A stretch of DNA of 64,000 nucleotides from a virus: IMG/VR virus record IMGVR_UViG_3300045988_072631; one strand, 5' to 3'. Within the stretch, counting starts at the first letter, position 1, and the number at the start of each line of letters is the position of its first letter. The notes below the pieces were generated by a model. It had not been told where the DNA came from. It did no database searches and saw nothing but the letters and a program-made list of their open reading frames with translations. Positions 2,448-64,000 of this stretch are shown here, piece after piece. The position numbers and the translations under genes are program-made.

Positions 2448-2936
2448 ATGGGAAGACTTCAAAAAATATCGGATGAGGATTTTACAAAAGCAGTAAAAGA
2501 AAGCAAATGCGTTCAAGAAGTTCTAGATAAGCTTGGTTATGGTCGTTCTAGTGGTTCTATTGGAAAGTTTATTTCCAAAAGAATTGAAGCATTAAACATA
2601 GACACTAGTCATTTTGATGTGGCACATAAACGATCATCTCATCCAGTATATTCACTTCAAGAAATTTTGGTTGAAAATTCATGTTATGGGAATATTGACC
2701 GCCTAAAGAAAAGAATTTTAAAGGCAAATTTACTGGAATACAAATGTGAAAAATGCGGAAACATCGGAGAATGGCAAGGGGAAAAACTTTCATTGCAATT
2801 GGAACATAAGAATGGAATACATAATGATCATAGGTTGAATAATTTGTGCTTTCTTTGCCCTAATTGTCATTCTCAAACGGACACGTATGCGGGAAAGAAT
2901 AGGGAAAGGCATATCGCTAGTATGCAATTACGGTGA
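2448..2936 (+). CDS. HNH homing endonuclease
   Basis: C-terminal CEKCG...LEHKNG...HNDHRLNNLCFLCPNCH HNH/zinc motif; ATG 2448 with GGAAAGG RBS. The upstream part of track ORF 2298 overlaps tRNA-Ile. Confidence 0.85.
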   Translation: MGRLQKISDEDFTKAVKESKCVQEVLDKLGYGRSSGSIGKFISKRIEALNIDTSHFDVAHKRSSHPVYSLQEILVENSCYGNIDRLKKRILKANLLEYKCEKCGNIGEWQGEKLSLQLEHKNGIHNDHRLNNLCFLCPNCHSQTDTYAGKNRERHIASMQLR

Positions 2937-2957: not shown

Positions 2958-2982
2958 GTAGGTTCGAGTCCTACACTCTGCA
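2958..2982 (+). pseudogene. orphan tRNA 3' fragment (T-arm plus 3' acceptor strand)
   Basis: GTAGG-TTCGAGT-CCTAC followed by ACTCTGC-A; no matching 5' acceptor, D or anticodon arm found nearby. Confidence 0.4.
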
Positions 2983-3043
2983 CTGGTCCAAAGTTAAGAT
3001 GCAAACTTTCTGGAGGACATTAAATAACACAGAAAGATTAGTC

Positions 3044-3127
3044 TGCCGTATGCCCGAGCGGTAAAGGGAGCGGTCTTGAAAATCGTCTGTCAGAAATGAC
3101 TTGTGGGTTCAAATCCTACCGTTGGCG
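3044..3127 (+). tRNA. type-II tRNA-Ser(UGA)-like gene, acceptor stem imperfect (possible pseudogene)
   Basis: TG-CCC-GAGCGGTAAA-GGG D-arm, GCGGT-CTTGAAA-ATCGT anticodon arm, long variable arm GTCA-GAAA-TGAC, T-arm GTGGG-TTCAAAT-CCTAC. The 5' TGCCGTA and 3' CGTTGGC strands do not pair fully. Confidence 0.5.
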
Positions 3128-14913: not shown

Positions 14914-15237
14914 ATGAAGAAAACAGTATTGATTCTTGGAACAGAATATGCAATTATTCACGAACATTTTGGAGAAAAAGGCGAAGACGGTTTTTGCGAT
15001 TACACAAGCAAAGAAATCCATATCAGAAATGATAATGAAAATGAAGTTGGTAATTTTGAATGGTTGCAAAAGAAACAGCTCCGCCACGAATTGATACATG
15101 CCTTTTTGTGCGAAAGTGGATTAGAATCCAACTATGAGCATTTCAAACAGTATGGGCATGAAGAAACAATGGTTGATTGGATTGCGATTCAGTTTCCAAA
15201 GATTCTTAAAGTTTTTAATGATCTTGATATTTTGTAG
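14914..15237 (+). CDS. small HExxH metallopeptidase-like protein
   Basis: RHELIHAF motif. Confidence 0.5.
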   Translation: MKKTVLILGTEYAIIHEHFGEKGEDGFCDYTSKEIHIRNDNENEVGNFEWLQKKQLRHELIHAFLCESGLESNYEHFKQYGHEETMVDWIAIQFPKILKVFNDLDIL

Positions 15238-26368: not shown

Positions 26369-26519
26369 AAATTCAGCCGAATCCATCAGCTCCGCCCGGC
26401 TTGTCGTTGAGGGGAGAACGGGGCGAAAAGGATAGGACGAACCGAGCAAGGACGGCAAACATTTTGAGAATCACGCTCACTGGACATGGTAGAGATACTG
26501 TGTCTGGTGGGCGTTTTTT
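26369..26519 (+). ncRNA. candidate structured RNA or leader of about 150 nt ending in an intrinsic terminator (26474-26519)
   Basis: No credible ORF; GC-rich paired segments; 10-bp stem CGCTCACTGG/CTGGTGGGCG followed by T6, 42 nt before the Rha start. Confidence 0.4.
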
Positions 26520-26561: not shown

Positions 26562-27209
26562 ATGTTAGTTGAGATCACAAAAATCCAGAAAGAAGAAGTT
26601 GCGACCGTAACTAGCCTTGATGTAGCGGAAACGTTCGGAAAGGAACACCGTAGGGTTTTACAGGATATACGTGAGCTGAAATGCAGTGAAGATTTTCGAT
26701 TGCACAATTTCGTGCAGTCGAAATATGTGAATGAACAGGGTCATAATCAATCAATGTTTATTATGACCAGAGACGGCTTTACGTTATTGGCAATGGGGTA
26801 TACCGGTGAAAAGGCTATGCAGTTCAAAGAAGCATATATTCGCCAGTTTAACGCAATGGAAAAAGCTCTTATCGGAAAAATCAGAGAAAGAGAAAAAGGC
26901 ATTGCAGTCCGGCAGGCTCTTACCAATACTTTGAAACAATCAGAAGAAAATGATCGGATGCATGGTCATGCCTACTCCACATATACAAATGTAATTTACA
27001 AAGCTGTATTTGGTAAAAATGCAAAACAGCTCCGGGAAGAGTATGGAGTAGACGATAAAGCAAATTTGAGAGACTTTTTTAGCGAAGAGGATTTAAGAAT
27101 AGTCCAGTCAAAAGAAATGCTTGTCAGCGGACTCATCGGGTGTGGTTGGGGATATGACCAAATTAAGAAATTCTTAAATGAAAACAATGCCTTGTTACAG
27201 GCCGTATAA
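26562..27209 (+). CDS. Rha-family phage regulatory protein
   Basis: TSLDVAETFGKEHRRVLQDIREL...MTRDGFTLLAMGYTGEKAMQFKEAYIRQFNAME. Confidence 0.8.
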   Translation: MLVEITKIQKEEVATVTSLDVAETFGKEHRRVLQDIRELKCSEDFRLHNFVQSKYVNEQGHNQSMFIMTRDGFTLLAMGYTGEKAMQFKEAYIRQFNAMEKALIGKIREREKGIAVRQALTNTLKQSEENDRMHGHAYSTYTNVIYKAVFGKNAKQLREEYGVDDKANLRDFFSEEDLRIVQSKEMLVSGLIGCGWGYDQIKKFLNENNALLQAV

Positions 27210-27219
27210 AACACATGCA

Positions 27220-27264
27220 AGCAGTCAGTGGTTTATGGAGGTTCGATTCCTCCGGCTGCTTTTT
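27220..27264 (+). ncRNA. tRNA-like acceptor/T-arm minihelix A followed by TTTT
   Basis: AGCAGTC-AGTGGTTTAT-GGAGG-TTCGATT-CCTCC-GGCTGCT-TTTT; covaries with copy B at 63800-63840. Confidence 0.5.
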
Positions 27265-27379
27265 CAGTGGGATAGGGTAGCTACCGAAAGGCGAGACGAC
27301 AGTCGCTTTCCCACTGATTCAACTATTATTGTCGCAAGTGCATGCAGGAGCACACATATCTGATGTCGGAGGTATAAGA

Positions 27380-28384
27380 ATGAATGAACAGCAGAAAAAA
27401 TTAACTGAAGATGAAATAAATACACAGATTGAATTTTTGTCAAGCGCAAAGTGCAATCATACATATCACAAATACATTGATATTACAGGGGATTTGATAG
27501 AGGGAACACTTCTTTCCAGAATCCTTTACTGGTTCACACCAGACAAAAAGAATAATACAAAAGTTCGCATATTTAAAGATGGGGAATATTGGATTGCAAA
27601 GCAGAGAAAAGACTGGTGGGAAGAAATCAGAATCAGTGAGAGACAGTATGATAAAGCAATTAAAAGACTCGCTGAAAAAGGATTTATTACTTTGGCGAAG
27701 TATAAATTTAATTCTATGCCTACTGTCCATATTAGACCTGAATGGAAAAAAATCAATGAAGCAGTTGCGATCTGGAAAGAGAATTTAAGAAAAGAAATTA
27801 CCGGAGAAAACAATCAGGAATTGCCAAAACAGGAAAACGGGAATGACACAAAATGTAATTCCCAAGGGAATAACACAAAGTGTAATTCGGGAGTTGCACA
27901 AACAGGCATTCCTATAACATGTATTACTAACAATGATTACAATAACAATGATTACGATAGTATGAGAGTATGCTCTTTTTCTGCGGAAAAAGAGGTCTCT
28001 CCCACATCTGAAGGTGGTACGTTATCTCCTACGGTCACAAAGGCCATTGACGAGGCAATGACGGAAGAAGGAGAATCACCTGCTAGCGGCTATAGAGCCG
28101 AGTTGAAGGACATAGCTGAATACTTTGTAAGCGAATATGCCAGAACGCAAGGAAAGCCGCATAAGCCACTCACAAGACCGGCTATTAGCAATATCGTATA
28201 CAATTACTTGCATCAAGACGAGGACGAATACGGAATCATGGATGATGTGTGGACGCTAGACCAGTATATTCCGTTAATTGATATGTATATGCAGACGAAC
28301 TACCGGGAGGGCATAGAAAAGAGCCTGTCCCACTTTATGTCCGGTTCTATCCGCCGGAATTTAAAAGCAAAATTGATAGAGTAA
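27380..28384 (+). CDS. replication-initiator-like protein (winged-helix N-terminus)
   Basis: GGAGG RBS before ATG 27380; LLSRILYWF...ISERQYDKAIKRLAEKGFI pattern; internal 25-bp direct repeats. Confidence 0.5.
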   Translation: MNEQQKKLTEDEINTQIEFLSSAKCNHTYHKYIDITGDLIEGTLLSRILYWFTPDKKNNTKVRIFKDGEYWIAKQRKDWWEEIRISERQYDKAIKRLAEKGFITLAKYKFNSMPTVHIRPEWKKINEAVAIWKENLRKEITGENNQELPKQENGNDTKCNSQGNNTKCNSGVAQTGIPITCITNNDYNNNDYDSMRVCSFSAEKEVSPTSEGGTLSPTVTKAIDEAMTEEGESPASGYRAELKDIAEYFVSEYARTQGKPHKPLTRPAISNIVYNYLHQDEDEYGIMDDVWTLDQYIPLIDMYMQTNYREGIEKSLSHFMSGSIRRNLKAKLIE

Positions 28385-32933: not shown

Positions 32934-33692
32934 TTACAACACATACGCCACATAACCAATAACATCATCAACATCACCTTCTGAGCATCGGGATCTGTTA
33001 TCTCTGATGCTCACATATTCAAATTTTCCATTTCCGCAAGGATTTCTGCGGGCAATGAACACATTGTCCCCGTAAATGATGATGATATCCTCGGTAGGAC
33101 GTGGATTGCGGTCATTGGCAATCAGGAGAATATCATATGGAGAATAGTGCGGCATATAGTTGTCAACCGATGTTTTTATACCCATAAAAATTTGCGGCTT
33201 GATATTTTGCGGAATATCAGTGATATCAAGGAATTCAAACTCGCCGGAAATATGTAACGTGCCGTCTGGATGTTCCTCCAGATTCATCACAGGGACAGTT
33301 TTTCTCCCTTGCCGGAAACCGCCCAAAGAAAGATCATATTGCCTGCGGACGAACCAGCGCACAAAATACTGATAGTGTTCAGGCATTTCACGGAACATAG
33401 AAATGCAGTCCATGTCCTCTTCGGAAATAGTGTCAAGTCCGATTAGCTCATCCACTGTAACACCTATAGCCTTAGCTAAGAGGGCGGCAGTGGACAGCTT
33501 GCAATCTTTGGAGTTCTGGTACAACAGATTTTTAAGCGTGTCAAATGAAATACCGGCTGATTCAGCAAGTTCATGAATGGTAATATCTGAATACTTTAAG
33601 CAAATATCCAAATTGTGACGCAAATTATCTGTAAAGACAGTGTTTTCTCTGGTAAAATGTCCAGATAATTTATACAAATTTTCTTTTTTCAT
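32934..33692 (-). CDS. CI/LexA-like repressor (HTH plus S24-like C-terminal domain)
   Basis: N-terminal HTH ITIHELAESAGISFDTLKNLL, divergent from an SOS-box promoter. Confidence 0.7.
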   Translation of the reverse strand: MKKENLYKLSGHFTRENTVFTDNLRHNLDICLKYSDITIHELAESAGISFDTLKNLLYQNSKDCKLSTAALLAKAIGVTVDELIGLDTISEEDMDCISMFREMPEHYQYFVRWFVRRQYDLSLGGFRQGRKTVPVMNLEEHPDGTLHISGEFEFLDITDIPQNIKPQIFMGIKTSVDNYMPHYSPYDILLIANDRNPRPTEDIIIIYGDNVFIARRNPCGNGKFEYVSIRDNRSRCSEGDVDDVIGYVAYVL

Positions 33693-40266: not shown

Positions 40267-40866
40267 ATGAGTAAAGCATTGGATATGGCAAGAGAACTGG
40301 TTAAGAAGCTGGAAGAAGAGGAAAAACAGCCAAAAGTGCAGCTTTTAACTTTGAATCCGGGAAATGTATTCAAAATTGGAGAGCATGATTTTATTGTACT
40401 GATGCAGTGCAGAGAGGAAACAGCAGTAATTTCCAAAGGATTCATGGCTGAAAATGTGAAATTTGATGAGGATTCGAGAAACTATAAAGAGTCAAATCTG
40501 AAAAAGGTTATCGAGAATCTGATCCAGCCGGTTATTGAGAAGGAAGTCGGATCAAAAAACCTTATTGAGCATGAGGTTGATCTGACAAGTGTAGATATGC
40601 AGGATGAGTTCGGAGGATTCAAGTGCAAAGTCAGACCAATCACATTCGAAGAAGCCAGACTGTACAACAATTTACTGGTTAATAAAAACCTTAATGATTG
40701 GTGGTGGACATGCACACCTTGGAGCACAGAAGACAGAGGATGGAAATATTCAATTGCCGTTGTTGCTCCGTCCGGCCTTATCAACGACAACTATTTCAGC
40801 AACTGCTACGGTGTTCGCCCGTTTTGTATCTTAAAATCTAATATCTTTGTATCGAAGGGAGAATGA
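40267..40866 (+). CDS. DGR target protein 1 (C-terminal variable region)
   Basis: C-terminus WWWTCTPWS...VVAPSG...GVRPFCIL carries VR1. Confidence 0.8.
   Translation: MSKALDMARELVKKLEEEEKQPKVQLLTLNPGNVFKIGEHDFIVLMQCREETAVISKGFMAENVKFDEDSRNYKESNLKKVIENLIQPVIEKEVGSKNLIEHEVDLTSVDMQDEFGGFKCKVRPITFEEARLYNNLLVNKNLNDWWWTCTPWSTEDRGWKYSIAVVAPSGLINDNYFSNCYGVRPFCILKSNIFVSKGE
40754..40830 (+). repeat. DGR variable region VR1 (77 nt)
   Basis: Aligns to TR without gaps; 13 of 14 mismatches at TR adenines. Confidence 0.85.
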
Positions 40867-41488
40867 AAATGGGATTAACAATGAAAGCATTGCAGGAACA
40901 GATTGATGTGTTAAAAAAAGAAATGGAAGAGCTGAGAAGCGGCCAGAAAGTAGAATGCAACAAGAAATTTTCCAAATTTCTTACTATTGGTGAAACATTT
41001 GAACTGGCAGGAGTTAATTGGAAGATTATTGATATCACGAGTGATGGTTATGTTTGTCTGTCTGATTCTATAGGTGAAATGAAATTCAGCTCTGAAAACA
41101 ATGACTGGAGAACCAGCAATCTTCGAAAATATTTGAATGAAGAATTTTTGAAAAAGATGGAATCAGAAATCGGGACAGGTAATCTGATCAAATTTGAGAG
41201 AAGCCTTCTTTCTTTGGACGGTCAGACGGAGTACGGAACATGTGATGATAAAGTTTCACTTTTGACAGTGGATGAGTACCGGAAATACAGAAAGCTCATT
41301 CCAAATACAGACGATTGGTTCTGGTTGATTTCTCCGTGGAGTACACCTTGCAATGGCTTCAACAACAGTGTTACCGTTGTTGCTCCGTCCGGCAATATGC
41401 CTTCAACTACGGCGGTTACTACGGCCGCTGCGGTGTTCGCCCGTTCTGTATCTTTTCTTCTGCAATCTTTGAATCAGAGGAAAAATAA
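40863..41488 (+). pseudogene. DGR target protein 2, frame broken inside VR2
   Basis: N-terminal frame reads ...VTVVAPSGNM; the conserved ...CGVRPFCIFSSAIFESEEK* end (TAA 41486-41488, TAAATG to avd) is in another frame because of 5 extra nt. Confidence 0.7.
41371..41452 (+). repeat. DGR variable region VR2 (82 nt, TR length plus 5)
   Basis: 15 mismatches to TR, all at TR adenines, plus insertion GCCTT at 41399-41403. Confidence 0.85.
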
Positions 41489-41860
41489 ATGCCAGAAACA
41501 GAACTGAAAGTAATTCTGAAAGCAAAAGATCTGGCAGCGCATACTTTGAGAGTGACATCGAATTGCAACCGGTATCCTAAAAAGTATAGATTTTCATTGG
41601 TGGACAAGATGCAGAATAAAGCACTTGAAATTTATGAATATTTGTACGAAGCCAACCGGACAGATTTGAAAAATTTTAAAAAGGAGCGATCAGAGTTACA
41701 GACAAAAGCAATCACAAATTGCGATGAATTGTTGTTTTATATCGAATTATCAATGAAACTTAATATTATCAGCATGGAAAGCACGGAGTATTGGTCGAAA
41801 ATGGTGTCCGATATAAAACATATGGCGATTGCATGGAGAACCAAAGATAAAGGACGATAA
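41489..41860 (+). CDS. avd: Avd-like accessory variability determinant (four-helix-bundle protein)
   Basis: 123 aa basic helical protein between target genes and TR/RT. Confidence 0.75.
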   Translation: MPETELKVILKAKDLAAHTLRVTSNCNRYPKKYRFSLVDKMQNKALEIYEYLYEANRTDLKNFKKERSELQTKAITNCDELLFYIELSMKLNIISMESTEYWSKMVSDIKHMAIAWRTKDKGR

Positions 41861-41882
41861 AATTATAGGTTATGCGCTGTTT

Positions 41883-41959
41883 AAACCGTTGTTGCTCCAT
41901 CCGGCAATATCAACAACAACAATTACAACAACAGCAACGGTGTTCGCCCATTCTGTATC
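41883..41959 (+). repeat. DGR template repeat (TR), AAC/AAT-rich
   Basis: ...GGCAATATCAACAACAACAATTACAACAACAGCAACGGTGTTCGCCC...; non-coding, 98 nt upstream of RT. Confidence 0.85.
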
Positions 41960-42057
41960 AAACAGGCAGTTAGAGTAGGCAATAAGCCGAAATCAGAGAA
42001 AGATACAAAAAAGTGCATGACCTTCTCGAATAGGGTAAATACAAAGGAATTTTTACA

Positions 42058-43080
42058 ATGGATAAAGATGTTATATGCAGCTATGAAAATCTGTATAAGG
42101 CATACCGGAAGGCTAAAACTGGAAAAGGTTTTAATGGAAGCTGTGCAAAATTTCAGACTATGAATCTGGAAGGACTTCACTTATTGAAAGAACAACTGGA
42201 AAATCAGACATACCGGTTGAATCCGTACAACGAATTTAAGGTTTACGAACCGAAAGAAAGAGTGATTAAATCGTGTTCTTTCAAAGACAAAATCGTCCAA
42301 CATTGCTTATGCGACGAGATTTTGCATCCTGCATTAAGGGATCGCTTTATTAGTACGAATTATGCAGGGCAGCAGGGGAAAGGTACTCATTTTGGAATGG
42401 ATTGCTTGAAAGAGCAAATGATTGATTTTTATGAAGAACATAGACTTGATGGCTGGATTCTTAAATGTGACATTAAAAAGTTTTTCTACCAGATAGACCA
42501 TGAGATCCTGAAAAGAATTGTTGACTATCACTTTCCAGATGAGTACACCAAATGGTTGAATCACCTGTTTATTGAAAGCACAGAAGGTCTGGGGCTTCCA
42601 CTCGGGAATCAGGTAGCTCAGGTATATGCACTTCTGATGCTAGATGGTATGGATCACTTCATTACCGAAACACTTGGAATATCCAGATATGGAAGATACA
42701 TGGATGATTTCTATTTGATCTATCCAGATAAAGAGTATTTGATGTTTTGTCTAAAACAGATCCGAGAATTTCTTGGAAGGCTGGAACTTGAATTGAATGG
42801 AAAGACACAGATTGTCCCATTCAAATGCGGAATAGCATTTACAGGTTTTCATCACTACGTAACATTGGAAGGAAAATACATAAGAAAATTGAGTGGAACA
42901 AACAAACGAAAGATGCGTAAGAAAATCAGGAAATGGTCAGAACTGGTTAGATCCGGGAAAATGACGGAAGAAAAATTTTTTGAGAAGTACAACGCTTGGA
43001 AAAACCATGCATTACATGGGAATTGCATTAAGTTGTGCCACTCGATGGATTTATATGTAAAAGAATTATTGGAGGAATAA
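42058..43080 (+). CDS. DGR-type reverse transcriptase
   Basis: LPLGNQVAQ and YMDDF motifs, 340 aa. Confidence 0.9.
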   Translation: MDKDVICSYENLYKAYRKAKTGKGFNGSCAKFQTMNLEGLHLLKEQLENQTYRLNPYNEFKVYEPKERVIKSCSFKDKIVQHCLCDEILHPALRDRFISTNYAGQQGKGTHFGMDCLKEQMIDFYEEHRLDGWILKCDIKKFFYQIDHEILKRIVDYHFPDEYTKWLNHLFIESTEGLGLPLGNQVAQVYALLMLDGMDHFITETLGISRYGRYMDDFYLIYPDKEYLMFCLKQIREFLGRLELELNGKTQIVPFKCGIAFTGFHHYVTLEGKYIRKLSGTNKRKMRKKIRKWSELVRSGKMTEEKFFEKYNAWKNHALHGNCIKLCHSMDLYVKELLEE

Positions 43081-43833
43081 GTGATTATGGCAGATACACA
43101 GGTAGCAGTAACAGAGGAAAAGAGAGAAGTATCAAGAAATAAAGTGACGGATTACAGTCTTGGAATTTTTGGAACGTCAGATAACTTCATTATGGCTATG
43201 CAGATGGCAAAAGCATTGTCAAGTTCAACGATAGTGCCACAAACGTTCCAGAGAAATGAAGCGAATTGTCTGATTGCCATTGAGCAGGCACAGAGATTGC
43301 ACGTAAGTCCGCTTATGGTAATGCAGAACCTTAATGTAATCCAGGGAAGACCGTCATGGAGTTCCAAGTTTTTGATTGCTGCGATCAATAACAGCGGAAA
43401 TTTTGATACGGAATTACAGTTCGAGGAGAAGAAGGACAAGGACGGAAAGCCATTTTCTTGCACAGCATGGGTAATGAAGAATGGTAGAAAAGTTGAAGGT
43501 ATGACGGTTGACATGGATATGGCGAGAGCAGAGGGATGGCTTGGAAAAAACGGAAGTAAATGGAAAACCATGCCACAGCTGATGCTTCGTTACAGAGCAG
43601 CATCTTTCTTTTCCAGTCTTAATTGCCCGGAACTGACTATGGGTCTGTACACAAAAGAAGAGATTATTGACGGTGATTTCAAAGAATACAAGATCGAAGA
43701 TGTACAGGAGCAGGCTCATGAAGAGATCGTTAAGAATGCAAATTCTATGGATTTTGAACCGGAAGAAACTGCTGGAACAGTGACTGAACCGGACGGGCAG
43801 CAGGCAATGCCGGAGTTCATGCAGGAGGGATAA
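43081..43833 (+). CDS. RecT/Red-beta-like single-strand annealing protein
   Basis: Sequence pattern and synteny with MBL-fold gene and SSB; start GTG 43081 or ATG 43087. Confidence 0.6.
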   Translation: MIMADTQVAVTEEKREVSRNKVTDYSLGIFGTSDNFIMAMQMAKALSSSTIVPQTFQRNEANCLIAIEQAQRLHVSPLMVMQNLNVIQGRPSWSSKFLIAAINNSGNFDTELQFEEKKDKDGKPFSCTAWVMKNGRKVEGMTVDMDMARAEGWLGKNGSKWKTMPQLMLRYRAASFFSSLNCPELTMGLYTKEEIIDGDFKEYKIEDVQEQAHEEIVKNANSMDFEPEETAGTVTEPDGQQAMPEFMQEG

Positions 43834-44203: not shown

Positions 44204-44415
44204 CTCTTAAAGAACGAGTGATCGTAGAAGCCTACACAGGTTACTGTATGACAATAGGCGAGGAAAGAGAAGAACTCTATAAATACATAGCGAATGCTAT
44301 GGGAAGACCGATTTTTTCCCATGAACTTGCAGATGAAGAAATTCTAAGCGAGTTGCACGATAAAGTTAAAACGGATTTTATCAGGCTTTGCAGAGGAGAG
44401 GATGTAGAAGCATGA
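44200..44415 (+). CDS. hypothetical protein
   Basis: ATGA coupling. Confidence 0.45.
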   Translation: MTLKERVIVEAYTGYCMTIGEEREELYKYIANAMGRPIFSHELADEEILSELHDKVKTDFIRLCRGEDVEA

Positions 44416-45134
44416 TTTTAAAAACCGTAGAGAGTGGAAGCTCTGGTAATTGCTATTTGCTCATTGCAAACAGCGGAGAAAAACTAATTCTGGATTGTGG
44501 AGCACTAGCAAAGGAAATTAAGAAAGGGCTGAACTGGGAAATCAGAAATGTTTCCGGGTGCGTTGTAACACATCAGCATGGGGATCATGCGTGCTCAGCC
44601 AAGTATCTTTCTAATATCGGAATACCAGTATTTGCTCCTTGCTTAGGAGATGCTTCTGCAAACTTCAAGGGAGAATGGATTATCAAAGTCTTTGAATTGA
44701 CAACGGTGGATGGCAAATGGACTCATACAAACGGTGATGGTTCTGAATGCCCGTGTTACGGTTTTTGGATTCATCACCCAGAGATGGGGACAATGATTTA
44801 TGCAACTGACACAGAACTGATTAAGTGGAGGTTCAAAAATGTCAATCATATTCTTCTGGGAGTCAATTATGACCCGGAATTATTATCCGGTGACGATGCA
44901 AAGAAAAACCATGTTGTCCGGGGACACATGAGCATTGATACGGCTTGCGAATTTGTGAAAGCCAATGTGTCAGATCAGTTGCAGAACGTTATTATGTGCC
45001 ATTTATCAAAAGAAAATGCAGATGCCGGTAAATTCATCGAAAAGATGAAAAAATCCGTTCCAAACGTCAATGTGTGCGTTGTGGAGCCTGGCATGGAATT
45101 AGAATTAAGGAATCCGGGTGAATGCCCGTTTTAG
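44412..45134 (+). CDS. MBL-fold metallo-hydrolase
   Basis: VVTHQHGDH motif. Confidence 0.75.
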   Translation: MILKTVESGSSGNCYLLIANSGEKLILDCGALAKEIKKGLNWEIRNVSGCVVTHQHGDHACSAKYLSNIGIPVFAPCLGDASANFKGEWIIKVFELTTVDGKWTHTNGDGSECPCYGFWIHHPEMGTMIYATDTELIKWRFKNVNHILLGVNYDPELLSGDDAKKNHVVRGHMSIDTACEFVKANVSDQLQNVIMCHLSKENADAGKFIEKMKKSVPNVNVCVVEPGMELELRNPGECPF

Positions 45135-56357: not shown

Positions 56358-57488
56358 GTGGGAAAAGACTTGAAAGGAAAAGAACTTGGATCTGGAATCA
56401 GTCAGAGGAAAGATGGATACTATATTGGGCGGTATACGACAAGAGACGGGAAACGAGTTCAAAAAATTTTTAGAAAGTTGCAAGAGTGCAGGAAATGGGT
56501 TGCGGATTCTCAGTATTTAGAATCACATTCCAATATAGATTTTCCGGTAAATATGCTTGTTTCCGAGTGGTACAAATACTGGATAGCTGTCAAAGAAAAA
56601 ACAATAAGACTGAACACGTTAGACAATTACAAAGACCGATACAGAATGAATATAGAACCTGTATTGGGACAAAAATTGTTGCGTGATGTAAGCATGATAG
56701 ATTGTCAAAGAGTATTGAATAGGATGGCAGATGAAGGATATAAAAACACTTCCATTATGCAGGCGAAAGCAACTTTACATAATATGCTAGATTATGCATA
56801 TCAGAATAATGTTTTGAGCAAAAATCCTTGCACAAAAGTTGTTCAATATAATATTGGCGAAAAATCTTCAAATAGAGAGGCGCTTTCAATTGATGAGCAA
56901 AGAAAAATACTTAAAGCTATTTCTGGGAACAAGTACGAAAAACAATATCGTTTTGCATTGCAGACGGGTTTACGCGCCGGAGAACTAATTGGTCTTGAAT
57001 GGAAAGATGTAGATTTTGGGAACAAAACAATTTCAGTCAAAAGGACATGCAGATACAAATACAAATTAAAGGAATGGCGAATAGGAGATCCCAAAAGCAG
57101 AAATGGAAAACGAACAATACCACTTACAGAAGAAGCATTTGAAATTTTGAAGGAGCAAAAGAAAATAGACAATGGCTTAAAAGTGTTAGAGTTCAAATGG
57201 AAAGATACAGTTTTTTTAAGACTTGATGGAAAGCCAGCCAATAACACAGAGTTGGATATTGAGTTGTATACTGTATGCAAAAAGAATGGACTTCCTAAAA
57301 TATCAATGCATATTTTAAGACACACTTTTGCTACCAGATGCGCAGAAGCAGGAATGATTCCGAAAACATTGCAAATGATATTGGGTCATTCTAATATAAC
57401 AACAACAATGAACATATATGTTCATGCCACGGAAGATCAGAAAAAGAAGGAAATGAATATGGTTGAGGAAGCTCTTAGAGTGGTGTAA
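56358..57488 (+). CDS. int: tyrosine recombinase/integrase
   Basis: HILRHTFATR...LGHSNITTTMNIYVH C-terminal catalytic motifs; GTG start. Confidence 0.9.
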   Translation: MGKDLKGKELGSGISQRKDGYYIGRYTTRDGKRVQKIFRKLQECRKWVADSQYLESHSNIDFPVNMLVSEWYKYWIAVKEKTIRLNTLDNYKDRYRMNIEPVLGQKLLRDVSMIDCQRVLNRMADEGYKNTSIMQAKATLHNMLDYAYQNNVLSKNPCTKVVQYNIGEKSSNREALSIDEQRKILKAISGNKYEKQYRFALQTGLRAGELIGLEWKDVDFGNKTISVKRTCRYKYKLKEWRIGDPKSRNGKRTIPLTEEAFEILKEQKKIDNGLKVLEFKWKDTVFLRLDGKPANNTELDIELYTVCKKNGLPKISMHILRHTFATRCAEAGMIPKTLQMILGHSNITTTMNIYVHATEDQKKKEMNMVEEALRVV

Positions 57489-63544: not shown

Positions 63545-63769
63545 CTAGTTCAAACAGTTCTCAATATCTTTCGCAAGGTGCGGAAATGCTTTTTCTATGC
63601 CTTGCACGCTGTCGGCGTAATAATCACCAACAATTTTTCCAAAAATGCGAAGATTGCCGGCATAAAATCCGCCTAACTCATTAAAATATATGTCTAATCC
63701 TGTCACCTGTTCCGGCTTGTCTCCATACCACATATCAATATTTGTTTTTCCCATTTTCATTTCCTCCAT
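63545..63769 (-). CDS. hypothetical protein
   Basis: GGAGGAA RBS. Confidence 0.5.
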   Translation of the reverse strand: MEEMKMGKTNIDMWYGDKPEQVTGLDIYFNELGGFYAGNLRIFGKIVGDYYADSVQGIEKAFPHLAKDIENCLN

Positions 63770-63799
63770 ATTTTCAAATTTTCCCGGTATCCGGGGAAA

Positions 63800-63840
63800 A
63801 GCAAGTCCCGGAATCGAACCGGGATAAAGCCGCCCTTGCT
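63800..63840 (-). ncRNA. tRNA-like acceptor/T-arm minihelix B
   Basis: Minus strand AGCAAGG-GCGGCTTTAT-CCCGG-TTCGATT-CCGGG-ACTTGCT-TTT. Confidence 0.5.
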
Positions 63841-63936: not shown

Positions 63937-64000
63937 TTATTCCGTGAATTTTTCCGGCAGTTCGTACCGGATAACGACAACCTCTTCACCGGTACTTTTC
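63937..64000 (-). CDS. 3' end of a gene entering from beyond the window
   Basis: Open frame ...VVVIRYELPEKFTE* to the window edge. Confidence 0.3.
   Translation of the reverse strand, partial: KSTGEEVVVIRYELPEKFTE

What the first reader, a model, noticed from the sequence alone, without database searches (positions are those of the whole stretch)
27220..27264. tRNA-like acceptor/T-arm minihelix (copy A) with a covarying second copy on the other strand
Copy A is AGCAGTC-AGTGGTTTAT-GGAGG-TTCGATT-CCTCC-GGCTGCT-TTTT. It has the same architecture as the minus-strand element at 63800-63840 (AGCAAGG-GCGGCTTTAT-CCCGG-TTCGATT-CCGGG-ACTTGCT-TTT). The T-loop and the TTTAT linker are identical in the two copies. 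Three T-stem pairs and at least one acceptor pair change in a compensatory way. There is no D arm or anticodon arm. Both copies sit just after a stop codon in an intergenic gap. An acceptor/T-arm minihelix is the minimal substrate of RNase P and the CCA-adding enzyme. These could therefore be mRNA punctuation/processing signals, stabilising 3' ends, or decoys.
Basis: partly seen in the sequence, partly recalled or inferred. Interest (0 to 1): 0.7.

Follow-up and report, generated by a model that had tools for sequence, protein, structure and literature searches.

The report
Phage tRNA top-half minihelix family
Two 41-base elements in this gut phage fold like the upper half of a tRNA; they belong to a widespread, apparently undescribed family found mostly in phages, which probably borrows the host's tRNA-trimming enzymes to cut phage messages between genes.

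Summary
Copy A (27220-27260, +) and copy B (63840-63800, -) each have an acceptor stem, a 10-nt linker containing GG, a 5-6 bp T stem and a UUCGAUU T loop. Neither has a D stem or an anticodon arm. They are not a private pair. A fixed 18-base pattern gave 41 complete minihelices among 57 hits in viral contigs, but only about 6 among 50 hits in 596 Gb of cellular genomes. Across 56 distinct members, 95% of stem cells pair and 11 of 12 pairs show changes on both sides. Members lie in intergenic gaps, face the same way as the flanking genes, and often occur several times per genome. No Rfam family covers them, and I found no paper describing them. In relatives of this phage, the slot held by copy A contains a full tRNA, a 3' tRNA fragment, another minihelix or nothing. 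That slot sits 3-4 nt upstream of an int-alpA RNA and the replication gene. Copy B marks the 5' edge of a conserved module. About half of its orthologues have lost the T-loop consensus. The best reading is a tRNA-derived signal for RNase P and RNase Z processing, like plant mitochondrial t-elements. That function is inferred, not shown.

The parts
27220..27260 (+). Copy A minihelix: acceptor 27220-26/27254-60 (7 bp), linker AGUGGUUUAU 27227-36, T stem 27237-41/27249-53, T loop UUCGAUU 27242-48
   Evidence: Sequence. The MFE fold equals the minihelix. R1 gives 56.7 bits. The independent model R2 gives 50.4 bits, E 4e-13. The element is conserved in L233-236, L289, L298, L299 and L309, where every stem substitution preserves pairing.
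27261..27264 (+). UUUU spacer (discriminator position plus trailer) between the minihelix and the next RNA structure
   Evidence: In relatives that carry a full tRNA here the spacer is UU or AUU, so the T run is not conserved.
27265..27331 (+). Diverged int-alpA RNA (RF02996): three-way junction with UAG / CGAAA / CU(UU) joining strands, in the 5' region of the replication gene
   Evidence: The window copy scores 22.7 bits, below the gathering score of 35.8. Syntenic copies in relatives score 45-59 bits. P1, P2 and P3 all covary between relatives.
27380..28384 (+). DnaD-like replication initiation / helicase-loader gene; the module that copy A travels with
   Evidence: PHROG 6493, E 1e-13. It was used to collect syntenic loci L233-L312.
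26562..27209 (+). Upstream Rha-like regulator gene; its stop codon lies 11 nt before copy A
   Evidence: Pfam Phage_pRha, E 2e-32. The upstream gene differs in L236 and L309 while the minihelix is kept.
63800..63840 (-). Copy B minihelix: acceptor AGCAAG/CUUGCU (6 bp plus a G.A mismatch), linker GCGGCUUUAU, T stem 5-6 bp, T loop UUCGAUU
   Evidence: Sequence. MFE fold. R1 gives 47.9 bits. R2 gives only a local 23-bit hit. Orthologues are present in about 75 of 80 related loci.
63783..63796 (-). Conserved hairpin CCCGG-AUA-CCGGG, 3-4 nt after copy B, followed by an A-rich tract and the ribosome-binding site of the next gene
   Evidence: It is present after the element in essentially all orthologous loci.
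63545..63769 (-). Conserved 74-codon gene downstream of copy B; the module that copy B travels with

Best explanation
Both elements are RNA-level tRNA mimics of the 'top half' of a tRNA. Each has an acceptor stem stacked on a T arm, giving 11-12 bp in all. A 10-nt linker (consensus A-A-U-G-G-U-U-W-A-U) keeps a D-loop-like GG that could dock on the T loop and complete a tRNA elbow.

They belong to a family that is common in phage genomes and rare in cellular ones. The family appears to descend from tRNA genes by loss of the D stem and the anticodon arm.

The elements are transcribed as part of polycistronic phage messages. The most likely role is as a signal for the host tRNA end-processing enzymes. 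RNase P would cut at the 5' side. RNase Z or 3' exonucleases would cut after the discriminator, and CCA might then be added. The message would thereby be cut at a module boundary, and the downstream RNA would start a few nucleotides before a stable structure: the int-alpA RNA after copy A, and a hairpin after copy B.

What is shown: the structure, family membership, covariation, strand bias, intergenic and multi-copy distribution, and replacement by full tRNAs at the same slot. What is inferred: recognition and cleavage by RNase P and RNase Z, and any effect on expression.
For: Structure: the MFE folds equal the minihelix.

Family: the stems were left as N in the search patterns, yet 41 of 57 viral hits have a fully paired T stem and acceptor stem. 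In cellular genomes the figure is about 6 of 50.

Covariation: 56 distinct members show 95.3% paired cells and 294 cells changed on both sides, against 85 in shuffles (0/500). Sliding the partner columns drops pairing to 36-50%. Orthologues collected only through a neighbouring protein show 11 of 12 pairs changed on both sides, 0/500.

RNA strand: about 20 of 22 upstream genes and about 17 of 22 downstream genes are co-oriented with the element. G.U pairs are tolerated. The T loop is conserved in the sense orientation only.

Punctuation-like layout: L028 carries three copies in consecutive intergenic gaps on the gene strand; L080, L112 and the window carry two each.

Interchange with tRNA: in relatives, the slot 3-4 nt 5' of the int-alpA RNA holds a full tRNA in about 35 of 78 loci and a minihelix in 10.

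Module edge: the genes upstream of both copies vary while the element and the downstream block are kept.

Precedent: plant mitochondrial t-elements are processed by RNase P and RNase Z and define mRNA ends (PMC1920247). It is established knowledge that acceptor/T-arm minihelices are substrates of RNase P, RNase Z and the CCA-adding enzyme.

RNA processing near phage tRNAs is also documented: theta ribozymes (PMC10879173), and the hammerhead II ribozymes found here upstream of copy B orthologues.
Against: There are no expression or end-mapping data.

The element is dispensable at the copy A slot: about 20 of 78 relatives have no tRNA-like sequence there, and 13 have only a 3' fragment.

About half of the copy B orthologues have a degenerate 6-nt loop (AUCGUG) in place of the T loop, and 4-5 lack the 5' strand.

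Protective hairpins next to the element are not general. They occur upstream in about 27% of members and downstream in about 9%.

The stack length is 11 or 12 bp rather than a fixed 12.

The search patterns fixed TTTAT and the T loop, so the apparent conservation of these is partly built in by the search. Only the ATGG/GG part, the stems and the protein-anchored sets are unbiased.
Confidence: 0.5

Rival explanations
1. Non-functional relics. The two window copies would be decaying leftovers of phage tRNA genes, in a region of rapid tRNA gain, loss and recombination. Their paired strands would be complementary by descent rather than by selection.
For: The copy A slot in relatives holds full tRNAs, 3' fragments fused to at least four different upstream sequences, other minihelices, or nothing. 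Half of the copy B orthologues have lost the T-loop consensus and a few have lost the 5' strand. The window has other tRNA debris at 2958-2974 and about 3040-3125.
Against: Orthologous series keep pairing through many changes on both sides. The same architecture and the same A-A-U-G-G linker recur in unrelated phages from different habitats. Deriving the architecture from a cloverleaf needs two separate deletions (positions 8-13 and about 21-43), so it is not a simple deletion product; this point is inference. All three stem substitutions among copy A relatives preserve pairing. Most members are not near any tRNA gene.
Confidence: 0.2
2. Trans-acting tRNA decoy or sponge. The released minihelix, perhaps CCA-tailed, would titrate a factor that reads the acceptor end or the elbow. 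Candidates include an anti-phage toxin acting on tRNA 3' ends, or RNase P, the CCA-adding enzyme or EF-Tu.
For: The family is largely phage-restricted. The T loop and the linker GG are conserved more strictly than in-vitro RNase P hairpin substrates require (established knowledge).
Against: No associated gene or defence context was seen, and flanking genes are diverse. There are only 1-3 copies per genome. Acceptor sequences are highly variable with no identity element such as G3.U70. Encoded CCA is rare, about 3 of 56.
Confidence: 0.12
3. Plain intrinsic terminators or 3'-end stabilising hairpins that happen to derive from tRNA sequence.
For: Both window copies are followed by 3-5 T. The simple scan flags the T-arm hairpins as terminator-like. 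Both lie just after a stop codon.
Against: The T run starts 6-7 nt after the flagged stem. Across the family the 3' flanks are not U-rich, for example ACUAA, CAAUG, AUAUU and CCA. Relatives with a full tRNA at the copy A slot have UU or AUU only. A terminator does not need a conserved T loop and GG linker. Co-directional genes follow within 3-120 nt with no promoter match.
Confidence: 0.08
4. A DNA-level site: an attP core, a recombination hotspot or an origin element that exploits tRNA-like sequence.
For: The window encodes a tyrosine integrase (56358-57488). tRNA 3' halves are classic integration targets (established knowledge). The 5' edge of both elements coincides with mosaic breakpoints. 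Copy A lies next to the replication gene.
Against: The integrase is 6 kb from copy B and 29 kb from copy A. The elements are strand-biased with transcription. Stems tolerate G.U pairs, which would be A.C on the other strand. Several copies with different stems occur per genome. Most loci are from phage contigs in which I looked for no integrase.
Confidence: 0.05

Closest known systems
Plant mitochondrial t-elements (tRNA-like processing signals; Forner et al. 2007, PMC1920247)
   Same: They are tRNA-derived structures with a conserved GGTTCRANYCC T arm and an acceptor-like stem. They are embedded next to protein genes in long transcripts. They are not decoding tRNAs. They are cut by RNase P and RNase Z to make mRNA 5' and 3' ends, and the released t-element can receive C/CA.
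   Different: They are organellar rather than phage or bacterial. They are mostly non-canonical cloverleaves of about 74 nt rather than a 41-nt two-stem minihelix. They have no conserved A-A-U-G-G linker. Their cleavage is shown experimentally, whereas here it is inferred.
Synthetic acceptor-T-arm minihelices (model substrates of RNase P, RNase Z, the CCA-adding enzyme and some aminoacyl-tRNA synthetases)
   Same: They have the same two coaxial stems and T loop, and they are the minimal substrate for tRNA end-processing enzymes (established knowledge).
   Different: They are laboratory constructs in which position 7 joins directly to position 49. The natural family inserts a conserved 10-nt GG-containing linker at that junction.
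mascRNA / MEN-beta tRNA-like elements at the 3' end of MALAT1 and NEAT1
   Same: They are tRNA-like elements inside a longer transcript. RNase P and RNase Z cut them, defining the ends of the flanking RNA and releasing a small CCA-tailed RNA (established knowledge).
   Different: They are eukaryotic nuclear RNAs and full cloverleaf-like folds with an anticodon-like arm.
tRNA-like domain of tmRNA (including the reduced mitochondrial tmRNA)
   Same: It has an acceptor stem, a T arm and a reduced D-loop analogue, with no anticodon arm.
   Different: It needs G3.U70 for AlaRS, binds SmpB, and is usually interrupted by the mRNA-like domain. ARAGORN finds no tmRNA here, and pair 3:70 is C-G in both copies.
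Genuine phage tRNA genes in arrays, with ribozyme-assisted 3' processing (theta ribozymes, PMC10879173)
   Same: They occupy the same genomic slot in relatives, at the last position of a tRNA array directly 5' of a structured RNA. They share the T loop and D-loop motifs with the window's own tRNA-Ile (AGUGGU, UUCGAUU).
   Different: They have a full cloverleaf with an anticodon and they decode. The window elements cannot decode.
RNase P-processed phage regulatory RNAs (P1/P7 C4 antisense RNA, phi80 M3 RNA)
   Same: They are phage transcripts matured by host RNase P through a tRNA-like acceptor mimic (recalled knowledge, not tested here).
   Different: They have different sequences and folds and no T-loop consensus. 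They are single examples rather than a family.

Membership tests
tRNA (Rfam RF00005 / ARAGORN) | Four-arm cloverleaf with D stem and anticodon arm | tested here: not met
   ARAGORN and Rfam at gathering score call only 1989-2060 and 2331-2404. At E<=10 only a 16-bit partial tRNA-Sec alignment covers copy A. Only 10 nt lie between the acceptor stem and the T stem.
tRNA (Rfam RF00005 / ARAGORN) | T arm: 5-bp stem with a GG/CC-closed UUCGAUU loop | tested here: met
   The loop is identical to the T loop of the window's tRNA-Ile.
Phage top-half minihelix family (defined here) | Full-length match to a covariance model built without the window or its relatives (R2: 6-7 bp acceptor, A-A-U-G-G-U-U-W-A-U linker, 5-bp T stem, UUCGAUU) | tested here: met
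   Copy A scores 50.4 bits, E 4e-13, over model positions 1-41.
Phage top-half minihelix family (defined here) | The same test applied to copy B | tested here: inconclusive
   There is only a local match of 23 bits, E 3e-4, over positions 13-34. The architecture and length are the same. The linker 5' half is GCGGC, and its clade (AGCAAG/CUUGCU) includes variants with a D-arm-like hairpin and degenerate loops.
Phage top-half minihelix family (defined here) | Intergenic position, same orientation as flanking genes | tested here: met
t-element-like processing signal | tRNA-like fold with a conserved T arm beside a protein gene in a longer transcript | tested here: met
t-element-like processing signal | Transcript ends generated by RNase P and RNase Z at the element's borders | not testable with these tools
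   This needs end mapping or enzyme assays.
Intrinsic (Rho-independent) terminator | G+C-rich hairpin immediately followed by a U tract, conserved among homologues | tested here: not met
   The scan flags only the inner T-arm hairpin, with the T run 6-7 nt away. There is no U tract after most family members or after the syntenic tRNAs.
tmRNA tRNA-like domain | G3.U70 pair, tag reading frame, detection by ARAGORN or Rfam tmRNA models | tested here: not met
   Pair 3:70 is C-G in both copies. There is no tmRNA call.
attP core of a tRNA-targeting integrase | Lies next to the integrase gene | tested here: not met
   The integrase is at 56358-57488. The copies are 6.3 kb and 29 kb away.
attP core of a tRNA-targeting integrase | Identity with the 3' part of a host tRNA gene | not tested
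int-alpA RNA, RF02996 (the neighbouring element 27265-27331, not the minihelix) | Score at or above the Rfam gathering score of 35.8 bits | tested here: inconclusive
   The window copy scores 22.7 bits. Syntenic homologues in relatives score 45-59 bits. The junction nucleotides UAG / CGAAA / CU are shared.

The most novel reading that the evidence does not exclude
Phages of many lineages (gut, marine and others) would carry a dedicated class of minimal tRNA mimics: a 41-nt acceptor/T-arm minihelix with a built-in elbow. These would hijack host RNase P, RNase Z and CCA addition to punctuate their polycistronic messages. That would be a phage counterpart of mitochondrial tRNA punctuation and plant t-elements. 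The elements would evolve by reduction of phage tRNA genes once decoding is dispensable. A bolder variant is that the released CCA-tailed minihelices also act as decoys for host factors or defence toxins that read tRNA acceptor ends.
Probability: 0.35. Interest if true: 0.8.

Novelty: new variant of a known kind. Interest (0 to 1): 0.68.

Why it matters
If these minihelices are processed as proposed, they would be a general, compact and portable way for phages to separate the fates of neighbouring messages using only host tRNA enzymes. They would be a bacterial-world parallel to mitochondrial tRNA punctuation.

They would also show how phage tRNA genes can be reused after losing their decoding function. 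That would add a role to the debate on why phages carry tRNAs.

Practically, the family is a well-defined candidate for a new RNA family, with a 41-nt consensus and strong covariation. It would improve phage annotation, because tRNA finders currently miss these elements. It could also serve as a small processing tag in synthetic operons.

The element is short enough for direct RNase P, RNase Z and CCA-adding assays, so the hypothesis can be tested quickly.

Tried and rejected
1. A general 'tRNA plus int-alpA RNA' unit. The E. coli K-12 ssrA-intA-alpA region (L475) has no int-alpA match at gathering score, so this is not supported.

2. Cultured relatives. blastn of the copy A region and of a marine locus against 50,697 phage records found nothing. 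Only a weak Rha-gene hit to Blautia phage Montmirail turned up.

3. Prior description. Four full-text searches found no paper on such phage minihelices. The theta-ribozyme paper does not mention them. Absence from this library is not proof that they are undescribed.

4. Protective hairpins as a general companion. They are enriched in only about 27% of members upstream and about 9% downstream, so this is not a family feature.

5. A strict 12-bp 'ruler'. Members have 11 or 12 stacked pairs, and pair 1:72 is unpaired in 22 of 56.

6. tRNA-like primer for the phage reverse transcriptase. The RT (42058-43080) belongs to an ordinary DGR cassette with a bAvd gene, and no link to the minihelices was found.

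7. Phage-encoded RNase Z. The MBL-fold protein at 44388-45134 matches PHROG 'metal-dependent hydrolase' and has no PDB relative by sequence. Nothing ties it to RNase Z.

8. Further copies in the window. A full-model scan finds none. The 17-bit hit at 15161-15198 lies inside a coding region and is probably chance.

9. Full tRNA at the copy B slot. None was found in 80 orthologous loci.

Full report
**1. The observation**

Both elements are present exactly as described.
- Copy A (27220-27260, +) reads AGCAGTC-AGTGGTTTAT-GGAGG-TTCGATT-CCTCC-GGCTGCT, then TTTT.
- Copy B (63840-63800, -) reads AGCAAGG-GCGGCTTTAT-CCCGG-TTCGATT-CCGGG-ACTTGCT, then TTT.
- Each is 41 nt, and each folds into the minihelix as its minimum-free-energy structure at -15 kcal/mol.
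- ARAGORN and Rfam find only tRNA-Gln and tRNA-Ile in the window, so neither site is a cloverleaf.
- The T-arm 11-mer is over-represented: 5 sites against 0.85 expected, and 0 of 100 shuffles reached 5.
- A full-model scan finds no third copy.

**2. The copies belong to a large family**

A scan of viral contigs with TTTAT-N3-GGTTCGATTCC returned many real tRNAs. It also returned about 20 elements with the same two-stem architecture.

I then used an 18-base pattern that fixes only part of the linker and the T loop, leaving every stem position free. In viral contigs it gave 57 hits, of which 41 have a fully paired T stem and acceptor stem. In 596 Gb of bacterial and archaeal genomes the same pattern gave 50 hits, of which about 6 are real. 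Some of those six look like binned phage contigs. The family is therefore strongly enriched in viral sequence.

No Rfam 15 family matches it. Four literature searches found no description.

**3. Structure is under selection**

- Across 56 distinct members, 95.3% of stem cells pair and 11 of 12 pairs change on both sides.
- There are 294 cells changed on both sides, against 85 in shuffles (0/500). Sliding the partner columns drops pairing to 36-50%.
- This alignment was fitted to the model, and the members were picked by sequence pattern. I therefore collected a second set through a neighbouring protein only: a 75-aa gene in marine-type contigs.
- That second set gives 20 distinct orthologous elements with 95.3% pairing and 11 of 12 pairs changed on both sides (0/500).
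- In that unbiased set the conserved unpaired nucleotides are the T loop and (A/G)UGG in the linker. The 3' half of the linker varies (UUUAU, UUAAU, UAGU, CCGAG, GCAGAG).
- The linker resembles a D loop. In copy A it is AGUGGU, as in the window's own tRNA-Ile. I infer that the GG plays the role of G18 G19 and docks on the T loop.
- Deriving this architecture from a cloverleaf needs two separate deletions. That argues against simple decay.

**4. Context**

Members are intergenic and face the same way as their neighbours: about 20 of 22 upstream genes and about 17 of 22 downstream genes. The flanking genes are unrelated in function. Several genomes carry more than one copy with different acceptor stems. 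L028 has three copies in consecutive gaps on the gene strand. Strand bias, tolerated G.U pairs and a sense-only T loop all point to an RNA role.

**5. Copy A in its own lineage**

I collected 80 loci through the downstream DnaD-like replication gene. The element at 27265-27331 is a diverged int-alpA RNA. It scores 22.7 bits in the window and 45-59 bits in relatives, where the gathering score is 35.8.

Of the 78 loci in which the int-alpA core could be located, the slot 3-4 nt upstream of that RNA holds (some loci were misassigned by the regular expression, so counts are approximate):

| Content of the slot | Loci (about) |
|---|---|
| Last gene of a tRNA array (tRNA with anticodon UUA, Leu, Ser and others) | 35 |
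| A minihelix (copy A type, or a second type TGCTATA-AGTGGTGCCG-TAAGG...) | 10 |
| A T arm plus 3' strand fused to varied upstream DNA | 13 |
| Nothing tRNA-like | 20 |

Copy A is therefore tRNA-derived, interchangeable with a tRNA, and not essential for the module. Where copy A is present, its 5' edge is the mosaic breakpoint: there are three different upstream genes. All three stem substitutions preserve pairing.

**6. Copy B in its own lineage**

I collected 80 loci through the downstream 74-aa gene.
- About 75 loci keep the element at the 5' edge of the conserved block, and the upstream genes vary.
- The acceptor AGCAAG/CUUGCU is invariant, so it gives no evidence for or against the structure.
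- About half of the loci have a canonical T loop.
- The rest carry an extra D-arm-like hairpin (UAAG-ACAGG-CUUA) and a degenerate 6-nt loop.
- Four or five loci lack the 5' strand.
- A conserved hairpin follows 3-4 nt downstream.
- With the independent model R2, copy A is a clear member (50.4 bits). Copy B matches only locally (23 bits).

**7. Mechanism**

The reading that fits most of these facts is a t-element-like processing signal. Host RNase P and RNase Z would excise the minihelix and separate the upstream and downstream RNAs. The experimental precedent is plant mitochondria. It is also known that acceptor/T-arm minihelices are sufficient substrates for these enzymes. Other RNA-processing devices sit nearby in these phages: hammerhead II ribozymes lie 0.25-0.85 kb upstream of copy B orthologues in 8 of 15 loci.

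None of this shows cleavage, so I give this reading 0.5. The rivals are:
- Relic of a tRNA gene, 0.2. This is strongest for the window copies themselves.
- Decoy or sponge, 0.12.
- Terminator, 0.08. The T run is not a family feature.
- DNA-level site, 0.05. The integrase is 6-29 kb away.

**8. Verdict**

It is best filed as a new, phage-specific variant of tRNA-like processing elements. Its function remains to be tested.

Noticed in passing
window 27265-27331 (+); L273 2405-2470, L297 2404-2470, L289 2006-2074 and others: A conserved int-alpA RNA (RF02996) sits in the 5' region of the DnaD-like replication gene. It is normally associated with integrase and alpA genes. P1, P2 and P3 all covary, and in about 58 of 78 relatives it starts 3-4 nt after a tRNA or tRNA-like 3' end.
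   Followed up: partly
L273 2329-2402, L283, L297, L245, L257, L279 (22 of 80 loci): Relatives carry a tRNA with anticodon UUA, which would read the UAA stop codon, as the last gene of the array before the replication gene. This may be an ochre suppressor or a sign of stop-codon recoding. The window phage lacks it.
   Followed up: no
L313 2005-2073 (+), which maps about 200-265 nt beyond window position 64000 on the minus strand; also L314, L316, L317, L318, L330, L347, L365: A type II hammerhead ribozyme (50-67 bits, gathering score 37) lies 0.25-0.85 kb upstream of copy B orthologues on the same strand, in 8 of 15 loci scanned.
   Followed up: partly
L138 3512-3581 (-): A pistol ribozyme (58 bits) lies about 2 kb from a family minihelix on the same strand.
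   Followed up: no
window 2448-2936 (+), 2958-2974 (+), about 3040-3125 (+): An HNH endonuclease gene directly follows tRNA-Ile. After it come an orphan T arm (GTAGG-TTCGAGT-CCTAC) and a degenerate long-arm tRNA-Ser-like sequence that ARAGORN does not call. This looks like tRNA-array debris.
   Followed up: partly
window 40267-43080 (+): A diversity-generating retroelement: two DUF6273 target-type genes, a bAvd-like gene (41489-41860) and a reverse transcriptase (42058-43080), followed by RecT (43081-43833).
   Followed up: partly
window 56358-57488 (+), 32934-33692 (-): A tyrosine integrase and a CI-like HTH repressor are present, so the phage is probably temperate. Neither minihelix is next to the integrase.
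   Followed up: partly
window 44388-45134 (+): A metallo-beta-lactamase-fold hydrolase (PHROG 392). RNase Z has the same fold, but there is no sequence match to any solved structure and nothing links it to the minihelices.
   Followed up: partly
L028 2962-3000, 3267-3305, 4503-4542 (all -): Three minihelices with different acceptor stems lie in consecutive intergenic gaps of one viral contig. One ends 3 nt before the next start codon.
   Followed up: partly
L416 about 1500-1580; L421 2398-2450: At the marine orthologous slot, one locus has a 77-nt cloverleaf-like version and another has a three-way version with one extra hairpin. ARAGORN calls neither. They look like intermediates between a tRNA and the minihelix.
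   Followed up: partly
window 63783-63796 (-): A hairpin CCCGG-AUA-CCGGG followed by an A tract is conserved after copy B in nearly all orthologues. Its role is unknown; it may stabilise the 5' end of the downstream RNA.
   Followed up: partly
window 26473-26514 (+): A strong terminator-like hairpin (19 pairs followed by TTTTTGTTTG) lies upstream of the Rha-like gene, about 700 nt before copy A.
   Followed up: no
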